Shown one piece after another: positions 7,682 through 14,789 of a stretch of 64,000 bases of DNA (positions within the stretch are counted from its first letter, which is position 1; each line of letters starts with the position of its first letter). Under the pieces are notes generated by a model. It did not search any database. It saw only the letters and a program-made list of their open reading frames with translations, and was not told the origin of the DNA. Origin of the DNA: an uncultured Bifidobacteriaceae bacterium. Its GTDB lineage: Bacteria > Verrucomicrobiota > Verrucomicrobiia > Limisphaerales > UBA11358. The DNA lies in NCBI GenBank assembly GCA_964449815.1, contig CAYVGC010000001.1, positions 15,361-79,360 of the forward strand, written 5' to 3'. A program made the position numbers and the translations under genes.

Positions 7682-7755
7682 TGTCCGATGGTGTAATGGT
7701 AACACAGCGCCCTTTGGAGGCGTTATTCATGGTTCGAATCCATGTCGGACAGCCA
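7682..7755 (+). tRNA. tRNA-Gln (anticodon UUG), CCA encoded
   Basis: Hand-folded cloverleaf. Acceptor stem TGTCCGA/TCGGACA, D stem GTGT/ACAC, anticodon stem GCGCC/GGCGT with loop CTTTGGA (anticodon TTG), T arm CATGG-TTCGAAT-CCATG, discriminator G, then CCA. Total 74 nt. Confidence 0.9.
7730..7755. repeat. att core, tRNA-proximal copy (attL/attR)
   Basis: Identical to 14764..14789 over 26/26 bp. Confidence 0.85.
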
Positions 7756-7788
7756 ATTTTATCAATGAAAATGCGGGTTCTGTGGATG

Positions 7789-7808
7789 TTTGCACAGAAT
7801 TTGCACAG
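7789..7808 (+). promoter_or_regulatory. Two TTTGCACAG motifs spaced 11 bp apart (candidate integrase/Xis arm-type sites)
   Basis: TTTGCACAG at 7789..7797 and 7800..7808, between the att core and the integrase start. The same motif array occurs at the other island end. Confidence 0.5.
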
Positions 7809-7835
7809 CAACCGGCTCGACCTGCTGACCGTCGC

Positions 7836-9116
7836 GTGAGATTCCCTGTCACCATCCGACACCGCGCTAGCAGCGCGAAGATTTACGCGCCTGCCGGGAA
7901 GTTCGCCTACTACCGCGTCGCCTACGCCACGGCGGGCAAACGCCGGATGCAGACCTTCGCCGCCTATTCCGACGCCAAAGCCGCCGCCGAACGCATCGTG
8001 CGGGAACTGGCGAACGGATCACAGGCCGCCGCACTCAACGCCAGCCAGTCCCGCGACGCCCTTGCCGCCTTTGAACGGCTGGACGGCTTCTTCAAATCCA
8101 AAGGGAAGCGCGTCAGCCTCAATACCGCCGTGGCGGACTATCTGGATGCGGTTGGCAGGTTGAATGTCCCGTTGTCCGCAGCCGTGACGGGTTATTTGAA
8201 CACCGTGGCGACGGTCAAGCGCATGGACCTGGCCGCAGCCGTGAAAGAGTTTGTTGACGGGCGCGAGGCCGAGACAAAATCGGTGAACGGCAAGAGGCCG
8301 GAATTGAGCAAAAGCTATTTCCTCAATACGAAGCTCTGGCTTGGCTGGTTTGAAAAAACCTTTCCGGCAACGGCGGTTTGCGACCTGACAAGGGAGCATC
8401 TCGACTTGTTCATGGCCGGGCGCAGCCACCTTGCCGCCAAGTCCAAGAATCATCTTCGCGCCACGGTGAAGATGTTTTTGAACTGGTGCATCAAGAAAGA
8501 TTATTTGCCCGCGAACCACCGCTTGATGGATGCGTCTGGCATGAAGCGGCAAAAAGCCGACAGCGGCGAAACGGATTATTTCCGCCCGGCTGAATTGCGT
8601 GCCATGCTGGATGCGGCAGACGATACCATGCGACCGATTATCGCGCTGCAAGGTCTGGCCGGGATTCGACTGCAAGAAGCCCAGCGGCTGACGTGGCAGG
8701 ATGTTTTCAGCGTGGCGGGACACGTCGCCATTTCCGCCACGAAATCCAAGACCCGCAGCCGCCGCTTGGTTGAAATCTGCCCGGCATTGGCCGCGTGGCT
8801 TGAACCCTACCGCCAGCATGAAGGCGCGTTGTGGACACAGAGCCGCGACACCTACCACGCGGCGTTTGTCGAACTCCGCGAGTCCCAAAAAATCCCGGCG
8901 CGGAAAAATGGATTGCGCCACGGTTTTTGCACCTACCACTTCGCGCTGCATGACAATGAAAATTTGACGGCGGCACAGGCTGGAAACAGTCCTACCGTGA
9001 TTCATTCGGCATACAAAGGGCTGGCGACAAAAGCAGAGGCGAAAAAATGGTTCAAAGTTTTGCCGCCGAAGGCCGCCAAGAATGTGATTCCGCTGCCAGC
9101 GGCAAAAAATGCCTGA
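7836..9116 (+). CDS. Tyrosine recombinase / phage-type integrase
   Basis: The C-terminal catalytic region contains GIRLQEAQRLTWQDV (Arg), LRHGFCTYH (His/Arg region) and a terminal SAYKG (Tyr). The track ORF starts at 7656 and overlaps the tRNA, so an in-frame GTG at 7836 downstream of the tRNA is proposed. The start remains uncertain. Confidence 0.85.
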   Translation: MRFPVTIRHRASSAKIYAPAGKFAYYRVAYATAGKRRMQTFAAYSDAKAAAERIVRELANGSQAAALNASQSRDALAAFERLDGFFKSKGKRVSLNTAVADYLDAVGRLNVPLSAAVTGYLNTVATVKRMDLAAAVKEFVDGREAETKSVNGKRPELSKSYFLNTKLWLGWFEKTFPATAVCDLTREHLDLFMAGRSHLAAKSKNHLRATVKMFLNWCIKKDYLPANHRLMDASGMKRQKADSGETDYFRPAELRAMLDAADDTMRPIIALQGLAGIRLQEAQRLTWQDVFSVAGHVAISATKSKTRSRRLVEICPALAAWLEPYRQHEGALWTQSRDTYHAAFVELRESQKIPARKNGLRHGFCTYHFALHDNENLTAAQAGNSPTVIHSAYKGLATKAEAKKWFKVLPPKAAKNVIPLPAAKNA

Positions 9117-10188
9117 CACACCGCCGATGAACTCAAAAGCGAAAATGATTCGACGAAAGAAGCGCGGCGGTTTCGCCGAACGGCTACTTGAAAAAACTAC
9201 AGCGCCGGACTTGAAAAATGCACTTCCAACGAGCGAATGGAATTTTGATGAGACTAAAGTATCCGATACCGAGGTTGTGGCGTGCTGCCTGTGGGAATAT
9301 GCGCGTGAGTCAGCTACGCTAAAAAAATTGCGGCAGCAGTGCGAGATAGCCTGCCGCGCCGATGGCAACGCTGATTCGCTGGTTCCCGTTGTGGCGGGGA
9401 ACATCCGACACCGGCGCAATTCCGTGGAACTTTTTTTGCGGGAGATCGTGCTTCTGCCTCCGCCAGACTTATGGCAGAGCGCAGACGAGTCCAAGCCATT
9501 TTACTGGCCGCCTGATGCTGCCTTTCCACCGCGAACCAGCAGCTTCCCTGATTCCTGGCAATCAATGTCCCCGGATGAACGTGCTCGCCGGGCGGAGTCT
9601 GTAGATTTGAAAATGAAGCCTTACTTCGCGTTCAGTCGTGGCCGTTTGCGAGACGCGCAGGCCATCGTAAGGACAGTGATGGAACAGCGCAAAGTCGGAT
9701 TAAATCCCAAGATTGACCCCCTTGCAGTCAGTTTAATTGCCACGTCCATGCCGTTAGCGCCACACGCGCCGTTTGAATGGACTGATGATAATAACCGACT
9801 GCCGGGCGGGTTTGTGTATCCCGGCGGCACGGAGGTTTCGGTTGTGGAAATTGATTGGGCGCACTTCACTGACAAGGAAATTGCAGACGCGATTGCCCAA
9901 AGCCGGCCAAAGGAAATCCCTGAACCATCAGGGCGCGGGCGCGGAGATACAATCGCAGACTGGCGGGCAAAACTTGAACGGCTCGGAATCATGCGGTTGA
10001 TGCACCATCACTCGTTTGACGATTTGGGAAAAATCGTGCCGGGTGAATGGTTGAATCGGGAGAAGTATTCCACCAAGGCCGAGTGCAAAAATGAACACAA
10101 AAAAGCTCTTGATGACTTTCACGATTTGTTGCCGCTCCAGTCTGACGAGAAACCACTATCTTTCGAGCCGCTGACGGGCAATTGGTAG
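9109..10188 (+). CDS. Hypothetical protein (island orphan, no recognised domain)
   Basis: 359-aa ORF on the same strand as the integrase, overlapping the integrase stop by 8 nt. I recognise no motif. Confidence 0.6.
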   Translation: MPDTPPMNSKAKMIRRKKRGGFAERLLEKTTAPDLKNALPTSEWNFDETKVSDTEVVACCLWEYARESATLKKLRQQCEIACRADGNADSLVPVVAGNIRHRRNSVELFLREIVLLPPPDLWQSADESKPFYWPPDAAFPPRTSSFPDSWQSMSPDERARRAESVDLKMKPYFAFSRGRLRDAQAIVRTVMEQRKVGLNPKIDPLAVSLIATSMPLAPHAPFEWTDDNNRLPGGFVYPGGTEVSVVEIDWAHFTDKEIADAIAQSRPKEIPEPSGRGRGDTIADWRAKLERLGIMRLMHHHSFDDLGKIVPGEWLNREKYSTKAECKNEHKKALDDFHDLLPLQSDEKPLSFEPLTGNW

Positions 10189-10256
10189 CCACGGAACTTT
10201 TCGGAATCAAATCGCGGCGATTTGTTTCCTTGCTCCATGCGCAATGATGGTTGCGC

Positions 10257-10472
10257 ATGAGCGAAAACTTGAATCCAACGGCACCGCCGAGCGAAGCGGG
10301 GTTTATTGACGAAAAGCAACTGCTGGCGCGGCTTCCTGTGTCACGGCGAACCTGCTACGCGTGGGTTCAATCTGGAAAACTGCCCTGTTGCAAAATAAGC
10401 AGACGCAAACTGTATCACTGGCCATCGGTGGAAGCAGCGCTCCTGCGGATGCAACGAGGAGGCTGCCAATGA
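10257..10472 (+). CDS. Excisionase/AlpA-like helix-turn-helix DNA-binding protein (copy 1)
   Basis: GFIDEKQLLARLPVSRRTCYAWVQSGKLPCCKISRRKLYHWPSVEAALL matches the MerR-superfamily excisionase/AlpA HTH pattern. ATG at 10257 (the track start, TTG 10251, is also possible). Confidence 0.75.
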   Translation: MSENLNPTAPPSEAGFIDEKQLLARLPVSRRTCYAWVQSGKLPCCKISRRKLYHWPSVEAALLRMQRGGCQ

Positions 10473-10777
10473 AAACCACATCCGCCTGTTACGACGCGAT
10501 TGGCAACCTCGAATTATCTGCGTGGCTGGTGGCTCCCGGCGTGACGTGGATTCAGACCCGCTCACCACAGTTCGCCCGCAAACTTTCACAACGAAGCGAT
10601 TTCCGACTTGTGGCGCATGGTGTCGCGGGCGGTTATCTCCGCACCTTTGAATTTCAGCGCGGGCTGGCATGGGCGCGGCGTTTAATTGCGCGTTACACCA
10701 AAAACGAGACGGCGACTAATGTGCGGATAATTGCGCCAGCGCGCCCGCCCCGGCGTCGAATGGCTGAAGTCGGATGA
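10469..10777 (+). CDS. Hypothetical small protein (102 aa)
   Basis: The ATG at 10469 overlaps the Xis stop (ATGA), and its own stop overlaps the primase-like start (ATGA at 10774). It therefore looks like a coupled three-gene operon. Confidence 0.55.
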   Translation: MKTTSACYDAIGNLELSAWLVAPGVTWIQTRSPQFARKLSQRSDFRLVAHGVAGGYLRTFEFQRGLAWARRLIARYTKNETATNVRIIAPARPPRRRMAEVG

Positions 10778-11985
10778 TAGCGCCCATTGCCATCTCCGCA
10801 CCCGTTTCCTTTGGCTTGGACGTTCGCCGCCCAGGATTGCTGGAAACGCGCAGCACGGGTGACGTGTTGCTGGGCATCCAGTCCGGCGCATGGCTGGATA
10901 CAGTTGCGCTTGTCCGGTCGCTGCCGCATGACAGCGCAGAGCAAAAATCCGCCAAGCTCGCGCTCCCGTTTGCGACATGGGCGGGCGTGTTTTCGCGCCG
11001 TTCCATCTCCGGGCTTGTCTGGCACTCTGGGCAAATCGGCGTTGACCTAGACGACCTGGGCGAAGCCGCAGCCGTCGCCGTGTTGCAAACCGCCGTCGCC
11101 GACAGGTTTTGCTTGGCCGCATTTCGATCCGCCCGTGGTGAAGGTGTCCGGCTGATTTTCAGAATCCCGCCTTGCTCGCCAGAGAACCACTCCATCGCAT
11201 TTGAACAAGTCGCCGAACACGTCCGCAACACCTACGGGCGGGACGTGGACGAATCCGGCAAGGATGTTTGCCGCGCAAGTTTCGTCAGCTTTGATCGTGG
11301 TTTGTGGTTCAATCCGTCCGCTGGTGTTTTGCCGATACATCTGCCGGATGGCACACAGCGAGAGAATCCCTCTTACCGCTGTGTGCCATCGCCCTATGCT
11401 GGGGAATTGGCTTTAACCTGTTGGAATTGGTTTGGGCAGCACTTCGCCAACATCGCGCCCGTGTCAGGCGAGACGGTAAAAACGCACGGCAACATTTTGG
11501 CTTTGGGCAAGGCTATTGCTCTACATGCCGAACGGATAAAAGCGCCGGTGACTGCCCGGCTTATTGATTCGGCGTTTGATTCATGGTGGCGCGAGCACAA
11601 CCGGCAAGGTGTCCGTTTGCGTTGCTCGCCGAATGAATACCGGCGCGAGTTGCGCGACAGTATTGAAGGGGCGCGGCGCAAAAGTTGGTTCAAGTCCGCC
11701 GCTGAAAAATGGCTGCGATGGACACGGCACACAAATTTTCCGCACAGCGGATTCGAGCGAGTCTTTGGCCTTGGACAGTGCTTCTTCACGTTCGCGGATG
11801 GATTTTTCCCGCCCGGCAACGTCGAGGTCTTTTTGGGCCAGCCGATTTTCAAAATCACGGCGGGTGGATTCAATGAGCGGGGCAGCCAACGATTCCGTCA
11901 GCTTGATCTCGTTTTTGCATTTCGGACAGATGATGGTTGGTTCGGCCATAAGCATTCCTCTGGATTCAGTGTTTGCGCCCATTAA
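10774..11985 (+). CDS. Primase-like replication protein (BT4734/VirE N-terminal domain type); 3' end probably disrupted
   Basis: KLALPFATWAGVFSRRSISGLVWHSGQIGVDLDDL, FRSARGEGVRLIFRI and DESGKDVCRASFVSFDRGLWFNPSA match the BT4734-like/VirE_N pattern (KLP..t.sG.F..R...L..hSG...lD.D.l; F.S.sG.G.k; D.s.kD..R..f.S.D....N). The last ~235 nt are antisense to a DUF2130 gene fragment, so the true C-terminus is doubtful. Confidence 0.65.
   Translation: MIAPIAISAPVSFGLDVRRPGLLETRSTGDVLLGIQSGAWLDTVALVRSLPHDSAEQKSAKLALPFATWAGVFSRRSISGLVWHSGQIGVDLDDLGEAAAVAVLQTAVADRFCLAAFRSARGEGVRLIFRIPPCSPENHSIAFEQVAEHVRNTYGRDVDESGKDVCRASFVSFDRGLWFNPSAGVLPIHLPDGTQRENPSYRCVPSPYAGELALTCWNWFGQHFANIAPVSGETVKTHGNILALGKAIALHAERIKAPVTARLIDSAFDSWWREHNRQGVRLRCSPNEYRRELRDSIEGARRKSWFKSAAEKWLRWTRHTNFPHSGFERVFGLGQCFFTFADGFFPPGNVEVFLGQPIFKITAGGFNERGSQRFRQLDLVFAFRTDDGWFGHKHSSGFSVCAH
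11750..11949 (-). pseudogene. Truncated DUF2130-family gene (N-terminal ~65 codons only)
   Basis: MAEPTIICPKCKNEIKLTESLAAPLIESTRRDFENRLAQKDLDVAGREKSIREREEALSKAKDSLE resembles a DUF2130 N-terminus (Zn-ribbon-like CPxC followed by a coiled coil). Beyond about 11750 the reading frame looks like non-coding translation. Confidence 0.5.
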
Positions 11986-12136
11986 ATACAGAATCATCCA
12001 CCTTGTCGAAAGATTCTGGACGGCAGGGCGAATTTCTCGCGGTTGTCTTGCCCTTATCTACGGGCAATTTTTGGAAGACACCATCCCCTTAACCATTCGG
12101 CCAACGAAACGAGCCGCATCCGCACCAGTGTCAAAT

Positions 12137-12187
12137 TGCGGCAAAATGCGGCAACGAACTTGTCGCAATTTGCCGCCATTTGCCGCC
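12137..12187. repeat. Phased GCGGCAA motifs in an inverted arrangement (candidate operator or iteron)
   Basis: TGCGGCAA at 12137..12144 and 12147..12154 (10-bp phase), TGTCGCAA at 12161..12168, and then TTGCCGCC at 12170..12177 and 12180..12187 (reverse complement GGCGGCAA, 10-bp phase). Confidence 0.5.
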
Positions 12188-12204
12188 TTCAGCCGAAGGC
12201 TTTT
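12185..12204 (+). terminator. Candidate rho-independent terminator
   Basis: GCCTTC-AGCC-GAAGGC hairpin followed by TTTT. Confidence 0.4.
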
Positions 12205-12223
12205 ATCACACGGACGCCTTACT

Positions 12224-12246
12224 CCTTGGCTGAACCAAGGTTTTTT
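12224..12246 (+). terminator. Candidate rho-independent terminator
   Basis: CCTTGG-CTGAA-CCAAGG hairpin followed by TTTTTT. The orientation fits termination of the xis/orf/primase operon. Confidence 0.45.
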
Positions 12247-12498
12247 GTCCGCGCAACGGCCACGATCCGGCCCGCGTGTTGAACGGTGTTGACAGGTTCA
12301 ACGCAATTCAACATCGCGCATCCGCGCCAGGTATGCCTTCGGCTCCGCGTGAATCGCCCTGCGATTGTGTGGCTCGCTGCGCGTCGTCAAGGTAGTTTCG
12401 CCGTAATGCCCGGCGACTTCCACCTTGACGATGCTCGCTTCGCCGGGAGAAAGACGGGCGATTAAGGATTCACGCGGGAAGTGTCGCAGCCGTTGGCT

Positions 12499-12960
12499 GG
12501 GACATCACACGGGAAATGCGATACCGTGATGCGGACAGTTTCCGGCCAGTCCAAGTATCGGGACACGGACGGCCTATGGCCAGAACGCGGACATTCGCGG
12601 CACGGGCACGGTCGCGGACATGGACTTTTCACGGACACGGACTGTGCGCGACCACGGAGAAACAGCGGACGCGGATGCGGTCACGGACTGGATGCGGGCA
12701 CGGCGCGGTCGCGGACTGGACACGGCCCCGGATCGGACACGGACTGCCCGTGGCTACGGACAGCGGCGCGGCCATTTGGCCGGACAGATTGCGGATTCAC
12801 CGCGACTGTTTCGCGGACGCAAAAACCTCGTTTTGACGAGGAGTAAGGCTTGCCCCATCCAAAACCGGTAGGTTGCAACCATGCGGATGCCAATCCACTG
12901 CGGATCAAGTGTGGACTGATTTGCCTGCATCGCGGATGCGACTGGACAGATTACGAGGAC
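12499..12960 (+). repeat. Strand-specific degenerate short-motif array (core CGGAC, variants GGGAC/TGGAC/CGGAT)
   Basis: There are 14 exact CGGAC on the + strand, at 12532, 12566, 12588, 12615, 12632, 12638, 12666, 12684, 12712, 12734, 12740, 12757, 12781 and 12814. I saw no GTCCG on this strand in the same span. CGGACACGGACTG doublets recur at 12632 and 12734. GCGGAT variants continue to about 12940. Five overlapping stop-free frames are a compositional side effect. Confidence 0.75.
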
Positions 12961-13085
12961 ACTTTCCATTCCGGCAGCGTGTCAGCCGCTTTTGAAATCC
13001 TGCGTGCGTGACACACCCGCCCGGTCGCTGTTTAGCACAAAGTCTCCGGTGTATGAATGGTGAACTGAAAGATTTTTTGAGCGTC

Positions 13086-13334
13086 ATGCCGCCTGCCAGC
13101 CCGGATATACGGGACGTTGGTATCCGCGCTGAACAAAACCAAACATCGGCAGGCGAGGCTGGCTTCATTGACCAAAAGCAATTGCTGGCGCGGTTGCCAA
13201 TCAGCCGCCGCACGTTGTTCAACTGGCGCACGTCGGGCAAAATTCCCTGCGTGCGGCTGGGCGGGCGTCGCATCTTGTTTCACTGGCCTTCAGTCGAGGC
13301 CGCGCTGCTGCGTCACCAAAATCCGGCGGCGTGA
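13086..13334 (+). CDS. Excisionase/AlpA-like helix-turn-helix protein (copy 2, diverged paralog of 10257..10472)
   Basis: GFIDQKQLLARLPISRRTLFNWRTSGKIPCVRLGGRRILFHWPSVEAALL is roughly two-thirds identical to copy 1 over ~55 aa by eye. The start is uncertain (13008, 13053 or 13086). Confidence 0.7.
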   Translation: MPPASPDIRDVGIRAEQNQTSAGEAGFIDQKQLLARLPISRRTLFNWRTSGKIPCVRLGGRRILFHWPSVEAALLRHQNPAA

Positions 13335-13418
13335 TAATTCCCCTGATTGACACTTTGCCCGAATGACGCAATCTGTCCGCGACGTTTTTTGGATTTGAAA
13401 CCGAGATGATTCAATGGC

Positions 13419-14465
13419 ATGAGCGCGAATGAAAATAAACCCGGCGGCGAAGTGATCCTGTATCAGACCGAGGATTTACAGACTCGCGTGCAAGTGCGGC
13501 TGGACGGACAGACGGCCTGGCTGTCTTTGAACGAACTGGCGGAGTTGTTCCAGCGGGACAAATCAGTGATTTCCAAACATCTTAAAAATATATTTGAAGA
13601 AGGCGAACTGTCGACAGCGGCAACTGTTGCAAATTTTGCAACAGTTCAAAAGGAGGGCGGGCGCACGGTTGCGCGGAACATCGAGTTTTACAATCTGGAC
13701 GCCATTATCGCCGTTGGCTACCGCGTGAAATCGGCGCGTGGCACGCAGTTTCGCATCTGGGCGACGGCGCGGCTCAAGGAATATCTCGTCAAAGGCTTCA
13801 CGATGGATGACGAGCGGCTGAAAAATCCGCCGGGCAAGGGGCAGACGGATTATTTTGACGAACTGCTGGCGCGTATCCGGGACATCCGTTCCTCGGAACG
13901 GCGGTTCTATCAGAAGGTTCTGGATATTTACGCGACGAGCGTGGATTACACGCCGGATGCGGAGGTGTCGCAGAAATTCTTCGCCACGGTGCAGAACAAA
14001 ATGCACTGGGCGACGCACGGCCACACGGCGGCGGAGATAATCCATGAGCGGGCGGATGCCGGGAAACCGTTCATGGGGATGCTGACGACGCGCCCCGGCG
14101 GGCGCGTGCGGAAAGAGGACGCGGCGATTGCCAAGAATTACCTCACGGAAGACGAATTGCAGGTGCTTAACCGCATTGTGAATCTCTACATCGAATACGC
14201 GGAGTTGCAGGCGCTGGAACGCAAGCCAATGACGATGCGCGACTGGATCACGAAGCTGGACGAGTTCCTGAAAATCTCCGGGCGCAAGCTGCTGGATCAC
14301 GCCGGGACGATTTCCCACGAGCAGGCGATGATAAAGGCGGAACTGGAATTTTCAAAATTCCGCGCACTGGAAGATGCGAAACCGTCGCCGGTGGAAAAGG
14401 AATTTGAGGCGACGGTGAAAAAGTTGAAGCAATTGAAACCAGCGAAGGGAAAGAAAAAGCCCTGA
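13419..14465 (+). CDS. RhuM-family (virulence RhuM / Fic-DOC-associated) protein
   Basis: EVILYQTEDLQTRVQVRLDGQTAWLSLNELAELFQRDKSVISKHLKNIFEEGEL...NLDAIIAVGYRVKSARGTQFRIWATARLKEYLVKGF is the characteristic RhuM N-terminal signature. Confidence 0.88.
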   Translation: MSANENKPGGEVILYQTEDLQTRVQVRLDGQTAWLSLNELAELFQRDKSVISKHLKNIFEEGELSTAATVANFATVQKEGGRTVARNIEFYNLDAIIAVGYRVKSARGTQFRIWATARLKEYLVKGFTMDDERLKNPPGKGQTDYFDELLARIRDIRSSERRFYQKVLDIYATSVDYTPDAEVSQKFFATVQNKMHWATHGHTAAEIIHERADAGKPFMGMLTTRPGGRVRKEDAAIAKNYLTEDELQVLNRIVNLYIEYAELQALERKPMTMRDWITKLDEFLKISGRKLLDHAGTISHEQAMIKAELEFSKFRALEDAKPSPVEKEFEATVKKLKQLKPAKGKKKP

Positions 14466-14547
14466 CGCGCTTCACGTCGTTTTGAGTCCCGGATGCTGCC
14501 ATGAACCCTCCGGCGGTGATCGGGACGCGCCACGGCAGGCCAAAATC

Positions 14548-14632
14548 TTTGCACAAGGTTTGCACAGATTCCGGGGCGAGTTTGATTTGCACAAAGTTTG
14601 CACAGCCGGTTTCTCTGCACACGATTTGCACA
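14548..14632 (+). promoter_or_regulatory. Six (T/C)TTGCACA motifs as three 11-bp-phased pairs (candidate arm-type recombinase/RDF sites)
   Basis: Motif starts at 14548 and 14559, at 14586 and 14597, and at 14614 (TCTGCACA) and 14625. All share the orientation of the pair at 7789/7800. Confidence 0.55.
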
Positions 14633-14763
14633 CGTTTTTCTTCCCACCGCTTCCCAAAAATGAACAGATAATGCTTGCAAACATTGATTGTCTGTGTATA
14701 TTGAAGGGCAATGAATATACAACTAGAGGCAATCATGGGAAGCGGTGAGAACACCCTGAAAGT

Positions 14764-14789
14764 TGGTTCGAATCCATGTCGGACAGCCA
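14764..14789. repeat. att core, distal copy
   Basis: 26/26 identity to the tRNA-Gln 3' end. The upstream flank does not fold into a tRNA. Confidence 0.85.

What the first reader, a model, noticed from the sequence alone, without database searches (positions are those of the whole stretch)
12499..12960. Dense, strictly strand-specific CGGAC motif array in the non-coding centre of the island
Fourteen exact CGGAC pentamers lie on one strand within 287 bp (12532..12818). I saw none on the opposite strand. GGGAC, TGGAC and CGGAT variants extend the array to about 460 bp. My rough base-composition estimate gives under 1 expected occurrence. The unit CGGACACGGACTG recurs at 12632 and 12734, with a near copy (GGGACACGGAC) at 12560. 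The array is not a CRISPR, since it has no constant repeat with unique spacers. It does not look coding, since five frames are open simultaneously and give only RT/HG/TD dipeptide noise. It lies downstream of the primase-like gene. In satellite P4 the alpha primase-helicase binds arrays of short iterons at ori and crr, so one hypothesis is an origin or iteron field, or another protein-loading array such as a centromere-like or RDF/regulator binding field. I do not recognise the motif from any described system.
Basis: seen in the sequence. Interest (0 to 1): 0.72.

Follow-up and report, generated by a model that had tools for sequence, protein, structure and literature searches.

The report
Conserved repeat array of verrucomicrobial mobile elements
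The CGGAC cluster is real and belongs to a previously undescribed non-coding repeat module shared by conjugative elements and small integrative islands of peat-bog Verrucomicrobiota. It is most likely a protein landing pad next to a transfer origin, not the replication origin of the neighbouring primase-like gene.

Summary
There are 14 exact CGGAC on the + strand in 12532-12818 and none on the - strand, against 0.4-0.7 expected. With one-base variants there are 27, against 3 opposite.

It is not coding. It is also not tied to the primase-like gene: 15 related islands that carry that gene lack the array.

The array is one copy of a widespread module. An exact-pattern scan of metagenomes returned at least 118 loci, and 79 of them carry a strand-pure array. 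Read as GTCCG, the array starts 2 nt after a conserved terminator-like hairpin. It is a degenerate 17-nt tandem unit (about GTCCA-GTCCGY-RNCCGY).

It occurs in three settings:
- conjugative elements: TrwC relaxase | two small genes, hairpin, array, 143-aa protein, TraL-like ATPase, coupling protein;
- islands with integrase, hairpin, array, excisionase-like gene, primase;
- the window's type, where the array abuts a 90%-conserved structured element and an excisionase-like gene.

The conjugative layout copies R388 oriT-stbDRs-stbABC.

Best reading (confidence about 0.4): a cis-acting DNA array for a small relaxosome or partition protein, present in this 7-kb tRNA-Gln island as an orphan copy. 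Protein binding is untested.

The parts
12499..12960 (+). CGGAC array (GTCCG on the - strand). The core 12532-12818 has 14 exact copies. It is a degenerate 17-nt tandem unit built from 5-6-nt sub-repeats.
   Evidence: Searches give the counts. Autocorrelation peaks at 17 and 34 nt. It is homologous to arrays in 79 metagenome loci.
12821..12849 (-). Right hairpin. On the - strand it reads GCCTTACTCCT (12849-12839), stem-loop 12841-12826, then TTTTT (12825-12821). It is intrinsic-terminator-like and faces into the array, which starts 2 nt after the T run.
   Evidence: The terminator scan found it and it forms one arm of a 49-nt inverted repeat. In 36 distinct hairpins the family members keep a 6-bp stem through at least 8 different fully Watson-Crick inner triplets.
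12216..12246 (+). Left hairpin. It has the same GCCTTACTCCT, stem-loop and T6, and faces right into the element. Only a stub of a GTCCG array follows it (12247-12275).
   Evidence: In relatives L146 and L234 the equivalent hairpin is followed by a full GTCCG array.
12254..12495 (+). Central structured element (conserved core 12335-12495), with nested long hairpins.
   Evidence: Folding z-scores are -4.1 (+ strand) and -6.1 (- strand). Mean identity is 90% across 21 distinct copies, with a 1-nt indel and hairpin-tip replacements that rule out coding. One-sided changes are mostly G-U compatible on the + strand.
12364..12374 (+). ATTGTGTGGCT, the best-conserved stretch of the central element. The decamer TTGTGTGGCT/TTGTGTGCCT recurs in the relaxase-proximal intergenic region of the conjugative relatives. 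From memory it resembles the R388 nic core ATTGTCT/A and the F nic core GTGT/GG.
   Evidence: 28 of 29 hits in 0.9 Mb lie in these two homologous positions, which amount to only two independent occurrences. This is a lead, not a demonstration.
12024..12215 (+). Left flank of the conserved module. It holds two further + strand terminator-like hairpins (12048-12067, 12185-12200) and a palindromic TTGCGGCAA/TTGCCGCC repeat block (12132-12186).
   Evidence: About 24 loci share it, with variable left junctions at 12024, 12055 and 12072.
12850..13052 (.). Right flank between the array and the HTH gene, conserved in the window-type loci. It contains the perfect palindrome GGTTGCAACC (12871-12880).
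   Evidence: A 1-nt indel among copies argues against the 53-aa ORF 12850-13011 (sequences).
13053..13334 (+). HTH_17 / excisionase-family gene (93 aa). In window-type loci it is always divergent from the hairpin, 235 nt from the array.
   Evidence: Pfam HTH_17, NCBIfam 'excise', PHROG 'excisionase and transcriptional regulator', positions.
10774..11985 (+). BT4734-like (VirE_N, primase-like) ORF. Homology to its family ends at about aa 325 (nt about 11750), so the conserved C-terminal tail is missing.
11749..11957 (-). Inverted 5' fragment (about 67 codons) of a DUF2130 gene. It marks a rearrangement junction.
   Evidence: 88% identity to L140 over exactly this stretch.
7730..14789 (.). The host island, about 7.06 kb, bounded by a 26-bp direct repeat (7730-7755, the 3' end of tRNA-Gln, and 14764-14789). 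Integrase lies at 7836-9116.

Best explanation
The array is one copy of a conserved, non-coding, cis-acting DNA module of Verrucomicrobiota mobile elements. The module is a terminator-type hairpin followed by 250-400 bp of degenerate 17-bp direct repeats, whose sub-repeats carry GTCCG (CGGAC on the window's + strand).

I propose that it works as double-stranded DNA, as a multi-site landing pad for a small DNA-binding protein of the conjugation/partition 'leader operon'. The candidate binder is the 143-aa protein encoded directly downstream of the array in conjugative relatives, followed by a TraL/StbB-type ATPase and the coupling protein. This would parallel StbA on the stbDRs of R388, TraK on the RP4 oriT and TraM on the F oriT.

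The 7-kb tRNA-Gln island in the window has no such protein, relaxase or ATPase. Its copy would therefore be an orphan site, possibly paired with a nic-like central element, that lets a co-resident conjugative element recognise the excised island for mobilisation, positioning or regulation.

Shown: the array itself, its family, its three genomic settings, its repeat lattice, motif-biased conservation, and insulation by inward-facing terminators.
Inferred: that a protein binds it, which protein, and what the island gains.
For: 1. Family. An exact scan for the hairpin flanks returned at least 118 metagenome loci. Of these, 79 carry an array of at least 7 copies per 400 nt. In 40 non-redundant arrays there are 477 CGGAC against 9 opposite. 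The arrays align as homologous sequence across settings.

2. Setting R (21 loci): TrwC relaxase, divergent p92-p83 operon, hairpin 10 nt after the p83 stop, array, p143 start, ATPase, p124, T4CP.
- The ATPase's best NCBIfam hit is TraL (8e-15, full length, below cutoff).
- Its 353 plasmid homologues are annotated TraL or MobD, and 313 of them sit on conjugative or mobilizable plasmids.
- This is the R388 layout. There the stbDRs lie around the stbABC promoter next to oriT, StbA binds them, and TraK is its RP4 homologue (PMC3098194).

3. As with the stbDRs, which recur in twos or threes at other R388 promoters, two motif copies 11 bp apart sit in the relaxase/p92 divergent promoter region.

4. 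Repeat content tracks the p143 clade:
- 11-17 GTCCG when p143 is at least 91% identical to the reference;
- 3-7 in the 73-75% clade;
- 0-4 in a 36-46% identical clade, where CGCAA and CTCGC are enriched instead.

5. Motif bases are 91-95% conserved against 70-82% for non-motif bases, for the WIN reference. In strain variant L004, 10 substitutions in 71 nt hit none of the 5 exact copies and create a new CGGAC plus a TGGAC.

6. The array is shielded from transcription. Terminator-like hairpins face inward on both sides in the window, with two more on the left. No sigma-70-like promoter was found in 11500-13600. No Rfam family matched.

7. It is not coding. Motif phases are unlocked (median share of the commonest phase 0.45), and 56 of 73 alignment gap blocks are not multiples of 3.
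Against: - No binding has been shown.
- p143 has no Pfam, NCBIfam or PDB sequence match. Its model is mediocre (pLDDT 64), and Foldseek found nothing significant, including no StbA-like hit.
- The window and all 38 window-type and 13 integrase-type loci lack p143, the ATPase and a relaxase in the DNA held. A trans-acting partner is therefore assumed, not seen.
- The 17-bp unit with a 5.7-bp sub-lattice is not the 11-bp one-face phasing of the stbDRs.
- The clade-versus-repeat correlation could be simple co-divergence.
- Concerted evolution of tandem repeats could preserve motifs without selection.
- Every family member was retrieved through the hairpin flank, so the hairpin-array association is partly by construction.
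- Array orientation relative to the nic-like decamer differs between the window and setting R.
Confidence: 0.4

Rival explanations
1. The array acts as RNA. In the GTCCG direction it would be a long leader downstream of a leaky or regulated terminator. Read-through might be controlled by the neighbouring AlpA/excisionase-like HTH_17 protein acting as an antiterminator. The (UCC N2-3)n or (GGA N2-3)n lattice would then bind an oligomeric RNA-binding protein, in the manner of TRAP or CsrA.
For: - In settings R and I the array lies between a terminator and the next operon in the sense orientation.
- An HTH_17 gene is adjacent in 51 of 79 loci.
- The 5-6-nt sub-lattice resembles the triplet-plus-spacer pattern of TRAP sites (own knowledge). 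The commonest exact spacing, 17 nt, is near the roughly 18-nt optimum I recall for a CsrA dimer (own knowledge).
- One-sided changes in the central element are mostly G-U compatible on one strand only.
Against: - There is no terminator at the 3' end in the CGGAC direction, and in the GTCCG direction the terminator comes before the array.
- No promoter-like site was found and no Rfam match.
- The array folds only modestly (z -2.6 on +, -1.5 on -).
- GGA is always flanked by C, unlike the A-rich context of CsrA sites.
- In window-type loci the array is bracketed by inward-facing terminators.
Confidence: 0.2
2. The array is a selectively neutral minisatellite. A 17-nt unit expanded by slippage next to a conserved terminator and hitch-hikes with it. 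Motif uniformity is kept by unequal exchange and gene conversion, and its only effect is to provide homology for recombination between elements.
For: - The spacing lattice is strict and array length changes by block indels.
- The clustered multi-base change in L004 looks like conversion between units.
- Arrays are decayed in some clades.
- The surrounding DNA in the window is visibly rearranged.
Against: - The array is retained in the same position in three unrelated backbones and in at least 79 loci.
- Positions of individual motif copies are conserved in the first 125 aligned columns.
- Paired copies recur at a second promoter in setting R.
- Orientation and distance to the hairpin are constant.
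Confidence: 0.15
3. One reading: an origin of replication or iteron field bound by the island's primase-like (BT4734-like) protein, as in P4 ori/crr or SaPI ori.
For: - The array lies 0.5 kb downstream of the primase-like ORF.
- It consists of direct short repeats.
- It is transcriptionally insulated, as origins often are.
Against: - The array is absent from 15 related islands encoding the same protein, including L006 with otherwise near-identical backbone genes.
- It is present next to unrelated replication or transfer genes.
- There is no A+T-rich stretch.
- The primase-like gene here is truncated and separated from the array by a foreign fragment.
- A better ori candidate for that protein family (GTTGCC repeats plus an A+T-rich stretch) is seen in L013.
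Confidence: 0.05
4. A strand-specific single-stranded DNA signal used during or after conjugative entry or rolling-circle copying, for example a priming or loading array. The two arrays on opposite strands in L146 and L234 would act like the paired ssi sites of RSF1010.
For: - Strand purity is strict.
- In L146 and L234 inverted arrays flank the central element.
- The central element tolerates G-T type changes on one strand only.
- On the - strand many units read GTGTC, CAGTC or GCGTC, which contain the GTC triplet used by T7-type primases (own knowledge).
Against: - Strand purity is the automatic result of tandem duplication.
- There is no experimental or comparative link to any primase.
- The array occurs with several unrelated primase types.
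- Its orientation relative to the nic-like site is not constant.
Confidence: 0.07
5. A real or decayed repeat-protein gene (RT/HG/TD-type dipeptide repeats).
For: Several frames are stop-free over the array. Unrelated (GGACNN)n coding repeats exist in viral contigs.
Against: - Motif phases are spread 5/5/4 in the window (coordinates), and no array is frame-locked.
- The unit is 17 nt.
- 56 of 73 gap blocks are not multiples of 3.
- No Pfam hit for the ORFs.
- No gene was called there in four independent assemblies.
Confidence: 0.01

Closest known systems
R388 (IncW) stbDRs / StbA-StbB-StbC next to oriT
   Same: - Direct-repeat array around the promoter of a leader operon transcribed away from the relaxase gene.
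- Gene order is a small DNA-binding protein, then a Walker ATPase, then a third small protein.
- Extra motif copies in twos at another promoter.
- The array is the first DNA after oriT.
(PMC3098194; setting R.)
   Different: - The stbDRs are 2 x 5 copies of a 9-bp unit at an 11-bp period. Here there are about 15-24 copies of a degenerate 17-bp unit with 5-6-bp sub-repeats spanning 250-400 bp.
- p143 shows no detectable sequence or fold similarity to StbA.
- A terminator hairpin precedes the array.
- The window's copy has no adjacent stb-like genes.
RP4 (IncP) TraK-TraL-TraM leader operon and the TraK-oriT complex
   Same: - The ATPase next to p143 matches TraL best.
- TraK binds an extended region between nic and traK (stated in PMC3098194). 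Own knowledge: about 180 bp is wrapped.
   Different: - No defined short repeat is known to me in the TraK region.
- The relaxase here is MOBF (TrwC type), not MOBP.
- p143 is not demonstrably TraK-like.
F-plasmid TraM sbmA-C sites in oriT (own knowledge)
   Same: - A 5-bp motif (GANTC) is repeated at fixed spacing between nic and the accessory-protein gene.
- The binder couples the relaxosome to the coupling protein. The T4CP here carries a weak 'TraM recognition site of TraD/TraG' match (PF12696).
   Different: F has far fewer sites, TraM is a ribbon-helix-helix tetramer, and the motif and spacing differ.
Type Ib/II plasmid centromeres (parC of pB171, R1, pSK41): arrays of direct repeats bound by small RHH proteins
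   Same: Many head-to-tail short repeats upstream of a partition operon with a small ParA. They act as both centromere and operator (bioRxiv 10.1101/2022.04.29.490116).
   Different: - No RHH protein has been identified here.
- The ATPase is of the conjugation-associated TraL/MobD type.
- The array also occurs in integrative islands that have no ATPase.
P4 ori/crr and SaPI ori iterons
   Same: Short repeats in a satellite-like integrative island that encodes a primase-like protein.
   Different: The array is not co-inherited with the initiator gene, has no A+T-rich region, and the same array occurs with unrelated initiators.
TRAP-binding (G/U)AG repeats and CsrB/RsmZ GGA-rich RNAs (own knowledge)
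   Same: A trinucleotide core (GGA/UCC) recurs every 5-6 nt on one strand.
   Different: There are no signals for a discrete transcript, the motifs are not placed in hairpin loops, there is no Rfam match, and the array is far longer than a TRAP site.

Membership tests
StbA/stbDR-type (or TraK-type) oriT-adjacent binding array | Direct-repeat array lies between the relaxase/oriT side and a leader operon transcribed away from it. | tested here: met
   Met in the 21 setting-R relatives. Not met in the window itself, which has no relaxase or leader operon.
StbA/stbDR-type (or TraK-type) oriT-adjacent binding array | The first gene after the array encodes a StbA/TraK-family DNA-binding protein. | tested here: inconclusive
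   p143 is helical with an HTH-like N-terminal domain, but it has no Pfam, NCBIfam or PDB match and no significant Foldseek hit. The R388 record was not available for a direct comparison.
StbA/stbDR-type (or TraK-type) oriT-adjacent binding array | The second gene encodes a StbB/TraL-type Walker ATPase. | tested here: met
   Best NCBIfam hit is TraL (8e-15, full length, below the curated cutoff). Pfam gives CbiA/ParA. Plasmid homologues are annotated TraL or MobD.
StbA/stbDR-type (or TraK-type) oriT-adjacent binding array | Repeats are phased at one helical turn (11 bp) so that the proteins sit on one face. | tested here: not met
   The fundamental period is 17 nt, with sub-peaks at 6, 11, 22-24 and 28.
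StbA/stbDR-type (or TraK-type) oriT-adjacent binding array | Specific binding of the protein to the repeats. | not testable with these tools
   Needs EMSA, footprinting or DAP-seq.
Iteron-type replication origin (P4 ori/crr, SaPI ori, plasmid oriV) | Iterons are co-inherited with, and specific to, the adjacent initiator gene. | tested here: not met
   Absent from 15 islands with the same BT4734-like gene. Present with unrelated genes.
Iteron-type replication origin (P4 ori/crr, SaPI ori, plasmid oriV) | An adjacent A+T-rich unwinding element. | tested here: not met
   G+C is 0.60-0.65 across 12200-13000.
CRISPR array | Constant repeats of 24-48 nt separated by unique spacers of similar length. 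| tested here: not met
   Only degenerate 5-6 and 17-nt units with no spacers.
Protein-sequestering GGA-rich small RNA (CsrB/RsmZ type) | A discrete transcript with its own promoter and terminator, and GGA in hairpin loops. | tested here: not met
   No promoter-like site, no terminator downstream in the CGGAC direction, no Rfam hit, and modest folding.
Protein-coding repeat gene | A conserved reading frame with indels in multiples of three. | tested here: not met
Intrinsic terminator (the two flanking hairpins) | A G+C-rich stem-loop followed by a T run, at the 3' end of a co-directional gene. | tested here: met
   The hairpin plus T5/T6 is present. The stem is kept through compensatory changes. 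It follows the p83 stop by 10 nt and the integrase stop by tens of nt in settings R and I. In the window no co-directional gene precedes either hairpin.
MOBF-type oriT nic region (central element) | A nic-core sequence next to an inverted repeat, recognised by a TrwC/TraI-type relaxase. | tested here: inconclusive
   The decamer TTGTGTGGCT is shared with the relaxase-proximal region of setting R. It resembles the R388 and F nic cores as I recall them. There is no clear IR2-like hairpin immediately 5' of it. Cleavage is not testable here.

The most novel reading that the evidence does not exclude
Small integrative islands of Verrucomicrobiota, which lack any transfer genes, carry a portable 'recognition cassette' copied from conjugative elements. 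It consists of a long landing array of 17-bp repeats for the conjugative element's accessory protein and, in the window type, a nic-like structured element, all insulated by inward-facing terminators. With this cassette the islands would hijack a helper's relaxosome or partition machinery. This would be a new kind of repeat-array-based oriT/centromere mimicry, and a new repeat architecture (a 17-bp unit with a 5.7-bp sub-lattice) implying an unusual protein-DNA filament.
Probability: 0.25. Interest if true: 0.7.

Novelty: new variant of a known kind. Interest (0 to 1): 0.55.

Why it matters
If the reading is right, the array marks a cis-acting site that links three classes of mobile element in an abundant but uncultured peat-bog lineage: a MOBF conjugative element, primase-bearing tRNA islands, and the window-type islands. 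It would show how tiny islands without transfer genes could be moved or maintained by a helper.

It also supplies a simple sequence signature for finding such elements in metagenomes: GCCTTACTCCT, hairpin, T5, then (GTCCG)n. Several hypotheses become directly testable, namely that p143 binds the array and that the TrwC-like relaxase nicks at TTGTGTGGCT.

For annotation it has two practical consequences. These arrays should not be called genes, although several frames are open. They also should not be read as the origin of the neighbouring primase-like gene.

Tried and rejected
- Rfam on the window and on five related loci: only tRNAs.
- Array-pattern scan of viral contigs: at least 120 hits, but the dense ones inspected were unrelated hexamer or 36-nt coding and tandem repeats. 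The hairpin pattern gave nothing in viral contigs.
- BLAST of 11750-13050 against plasmids and phages: only the DUF2130 fragment matched.
- Relatives found through the BT4734-like protein: none has the array. This killed the primase-origin idea and exposed the rearrangement.
- The DUF2130 fragment's homologues showed that the short proteins are N-terminal pieces of split DUF2130 genes. Their upstream DNA is unrelated to the array.
- A periodogram on the window's array alone was only marginal: 5.6-nt power 7.9 against a 95% null of 7.0. The lattice became clear only across the family.
- RNA folding of the array on either strand was unremarkable.
- The p143 structure prediction and fold search were inconclusive.
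- The R388 record was not in the plasmid collection.
- I considered Chi-like or KOPS-like polar motifs. The pentamer shows no excess or strand skew elsewhere in the window: 91 on + against 107 on - outside the array.
- I considered DnaA boxes. The motif fails at the conserved A7 and A9 positions of the box (own knowledge).
- The small ORFs 12286-12465 and 12850-13011 are rejected because copies differ by 1-nt indels.
Full report
**1. Observation**

The + strand of 12532-12818 carries 14 exact CGGAC. The - strand carries none between 12251 and 13375. Outside the array the pentamer occurs about 1.4 times per kb per strand with no strand bias (91 on +, 107 on -). About 0.4 copies are therefore expected in 287 bp. 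From the local base composition I compute about 0.7.

No other pentamer reaches this density anywhere in the 64-kb window. Counting [CGT]GGA[CT], there are 27 copies on + between 12499 and 12947 and 3 on -. The 13-mer CGGACACGGACTG is at 12632 and 12734.

**2. Not coding, not CRISPR, not a known RNA**

Motif starts fall in codon phases 5/5/4 (coordinates). The ORFs over the array have no Pfam match. Four independent assemblies of the same genome called no gene there. Repeat finders see only degenerate 6-, 27- and 28-nt units with no spacers. Rfam gives nothing at gathering or at permissive thresholds.

**3. Surroundings in the window**

The host is a 7.06-kb island bounded by a 26-bp direct repeat, 7730-7755 (the 3' end of tRNA-Gln) and 14764-14789. 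Its contents, in order:
- a tyrosine integrase;
- a 353-aa ORF;
- an excisionase-like HTH;
- a 102-aa ORF;
- a BT4734-like_N, primase-like ORF;
- the non-coding region;
- a second HTH_17 gene (13053-13334);
- a RhuM gene.

The primase-like ORF matches its large family (144 hits) only up to about residue 325. The family's conserved C-terminal tail is missing. At about 11750 it abuts an inverted 5' fragment of a DUF2130 gene (11957-11749).

The array is bracketed by a 49-nt imperfect inverted repeat, 12216-12264 and 12801-12849. This repeat is two terminator-like hairpins facing inward. Both have the form GCCTTACTCCT, stem-loop, T5-6. Two more + strand terminator-like hairpins lie just to the left. 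Between the left hairpin and the array lies a 245-nt element with nested long hairpins; folding z-scores are -4.1 on + and -6.1 on -. No sigma-70-like promoter was found in 11500-13600.

**4. The primase-origin idea fails**

Fifteen genomic loci encoding relatives of the BT4734-like protein (50-80% identity, Verrucomicrobiota MAGs from bogs) have no CGGAC array. The closest, L006, shares integrase (94%), the 102-aa ORF, the HTH gene (85%), RhuM (96%) and even the TGCAC repeats near attR. However, it has unrelated genes in place of window 11750-13050. The region is 60-65% G+C with no A+T-rich stretch.

**5. The array belongs to a widespread family**

I scanned metagenome contigs for the hairpin flanks (GCCTTACTCCT N9-13 AGGTTTTT). 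Almost all come from peat or bog samples.

In 79 of them the hairpin is followed by a strand-pure array of 7-18 exact copies per 400 nt. Read as GTCCG, the array begins 2 nt after the T run. In 40 non-redundant arrays there are 477 CGGAC against 9 on the other strand. The arrays are homologous in sequence, not merely in motif.

Caveat: because loci were retrieved through the hairpin, the hairpin-array association is partly by construction. Hairpins without arrays also exist.

**6. Repeat architecture**

Spacing between successive exact copies falls on a sharp lattice: 6, 11, 17, 22-24, 28, 33-34, 39-41, 45-46, 51 and 57 nt, with empty bins between. Sequence autocorrelation peaks at 17 nt and its multiples. 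The array is therefore a degenerate tandem repeat of a 17-nt unit made of three 5-6-nt sub-repeats, roughly GTCCA-GTCCGY-RNCCGY.

The flanks of the motif are weakly constrained (Y R CGGAC W). Array length varies by block indels; 56 of 73 gap blocks are not multiples of three, and no array is frame-locked.

**7. Signs of constraint**

Motif columns were defined on one reference and scored on the others. With the window as reference, motif bases are 91-95% conserved against 70-82% for other bases; four other references gave the same direction. A motif-driven alignment and shared ancestry inflate this figure.

A strain variant (L004, 99.7% identical over 8.4 kb) has 10 of its 22 differences inside 71 nt of the array. 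None touches the five exact copies there. Three of them together create a new CGGAC and turn TGGAT into TGGAC. This fits either selection or conversion between units.

**8. Three genomic settings**

*Setting R (21 loci).* The order is: TrwC-type relaxase, divergent p92 and p83 genes, hairpin 10 nt after the p83 stop, about 400 bp of array, start codon of a 143-aa helical protein (p143), a Walker ATPase, a 124-aa protein, and a TrwB/VirD4-type coupling protein. The ATPase's best NCBIfam hit is TraL. Its 353 plasmid homologues are annotated TraL or MobD, and 313 of them sit on conjugative or mobilizable plasmids.

*Setting I (13 loci).* The order is: tRNA, integrase, hairpin, array, HTH_17 gene, further HTH genes, then a CHC2-zinc-finger/DUF3987 primase.

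*Setting W (38 loci, including the window).* An HTH_17 gene lies divergent, 235 nt from the array; then come the hairpin, the array and the structured central element. In L146 and L234 a second array in the opposite orientation lies on the other side of the central element. The full form is thus hairpin, array, centre, inverted array, inverted hairpin. The window has lost most of the left array.

No W or I locus carries p143, the ATPase, the coupling protein or a relaxase in the DNA held.

**9. Comparison with known systems**

Setting R reproduces the R388 organisation. There, MOB genes and stbABC diverge from oriT. Two sets of five 9-bp direct repeats (the stbDRs, 11-bp period) surround the stb promoter. 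StbA binds them to control both segregation and conjugation, StbB is a Walker ATPase, and the RP4 homologue TraK binds between nic and traK (PMC3098194; bioRxiv 10.1101/2022.04.29.490116).

Two further parallels:
- Two motif copies 11 bp apart lie in the relaxase/p92 divergent promoter region of setting R. In R388 the stbDRs likewise recur in twos or threes at other promoters.
- Repeat content follows the p143 clade (details). There are 11-17 GTCCG in the clade at least 91% identical to the reference and 3-7 in the 73-75% clade. The 36-46% clade has 0-4, and there CGCAA and CTCGC are enriched instead.

Membership of p143 in the StbA/TraK family could not be shown. It has no Pfam, NCBIfam or PDB sequence hit, its AlphaFold model has pLDDT 64, and Foldseek found nothing significant. 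The 17-bp unit also differs from the 11-bp phasing of the stbDRs. So this works like that kind of site in layout, but it is not a demonstrated family member.

**10. The central element**

Twenty-one distinct copies are 90% identical, much more conserved than the arrays. A 1-nt indel and replaced hairpin tips that keep pairing exclude coding. In the consensus fold, one-sided changes are mostly G-U compatible on the + strand: 16 variable cells plus two near-invariant G-U pairs, against 7 C-A/A-C cells. This hints that the + strand folds, as RNA or as transferred single-stranded DNA.

Its best-conserved stretch, ATTGTGTGGCT (12364-12374), shares a decamer with the relaxase-proximal intergenic region of setting R. 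From memory it resembles the R388 (ATTGTCT/A) and F (GTGT/GG) nic cores. PMC4176350 confirms the hairpin, single-stranded stretch and purine-after-nick architecture, but does not print the sequence. These are only two independent occurrences, so it is a lead for an oriT-like function and nothing more.

**11. Mechanism proposed**

I favour double-stranded DNA acting as a multi-site landing pad for a small relaxosome or partition accessory protein of the conjugative elements, with p143 as the candidate. In the window it would be an orphan copy, insulated from transcription by inward-facing terminators. It would let a co-resident conjugative element recognise the excised island.

Confidence is about 0.4. 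Binding, the identity of the binder and the benefit to the island are all inferred.

Rivals:
- an RNA leader or protein-binding RNA (0.2);
- a neutral minisatellite hitch-hiking with the terminator (0.15);
- a single-stranded DNA signal (0.07);
- the primase origin (0.05);
- a coding repeat (0.01).

**12. Verdict**

The finding is real. Its favoured interpretation (origin for the primase) is not supported, while its fallback (another protein-loading array) is the best current reading.

The family appears undescribed. It has no Rfam family, I recognise no matching motif, and I ran no literature search for the motif itself. I class it as a new variant of a known kind of element and give it moderate interest (0.55).

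Noticed in passing
window 14548-14640: Six direct TTTGCACA repeats lie just inside attR (14764-14789). The same TGCAC cluster sits after the RhuM gene in related islands L006 and L009. They are probably integrase arm-type sites.
   Followed up: partly
window 10774-11985 and 11749-11957: The BT4734-like (primase-like) ORF loses homology to its family after about residue 325. Exactly there it meets an inverted 5' fragment of a DUF2130 gene. The island's replication gene is probably defective.
   Followed up: yes
window 12132-12186: A palindromic block of TTGCGGCAA(A) / TTGCCGCC repeats lies between two terminator-like hairpins and is conserved in about 24 related loci. It looks like an operator for a dimeric regulator.
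   Followed up: no
window 12871-12880: The perfect 10-bp palindrome GGTTGCAACC lies between the array's right hairpin and the HTH_17 gene and is conserved in window-type loci. It is a candidate autoregulatory site of the HTH_17 protein.
   Followed up: no
L013 8540-8700: About 1.5 kb downstream of the BT4734-like gene, a related island has six or seven GTTGCC(A) direct repeats at a 9-12-bp spacing next to an A+T-rich stretch. This is a more conventional origin candidate for that protein family.
   Followed up: no
L157, L163, L191, L206, L208 (400 nt after the hairpin): A sister group of conjugative loci has the same hairpin and a p143 homologue 36-46% identical. Its roughly 400-nt spacer is enriched in CGCAA and CTCGC instead of GTCCG and shows only weak 11-nt periodicity.
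   Followed up: partly
window 10293-10454 and 13053-13334: The island carries two paralogous HTH_17 / excisionase-like genes (71% identical over 55 aa), one on each side of the primase-like gene.
   Followed up: no
L140 6001-7233 and L141 6001-7279: Many database 'proteins' of about 100 aa with an almost invariant N-terminus (EPTIxCPxCKxEIKLTESLAAPL) are N-terminal pieces of DUF2130 genes split by frameshifts. The conservation spans several phyla.
   Followed up: partly
L042 3240-3470; L068 700-1070: Viral contigs hold long perfect (GGACNN)n hexamer arrays and 36-nt tandem repeats containing CGGAC. They are unrelated to the family studied here.
   Followed up: partly
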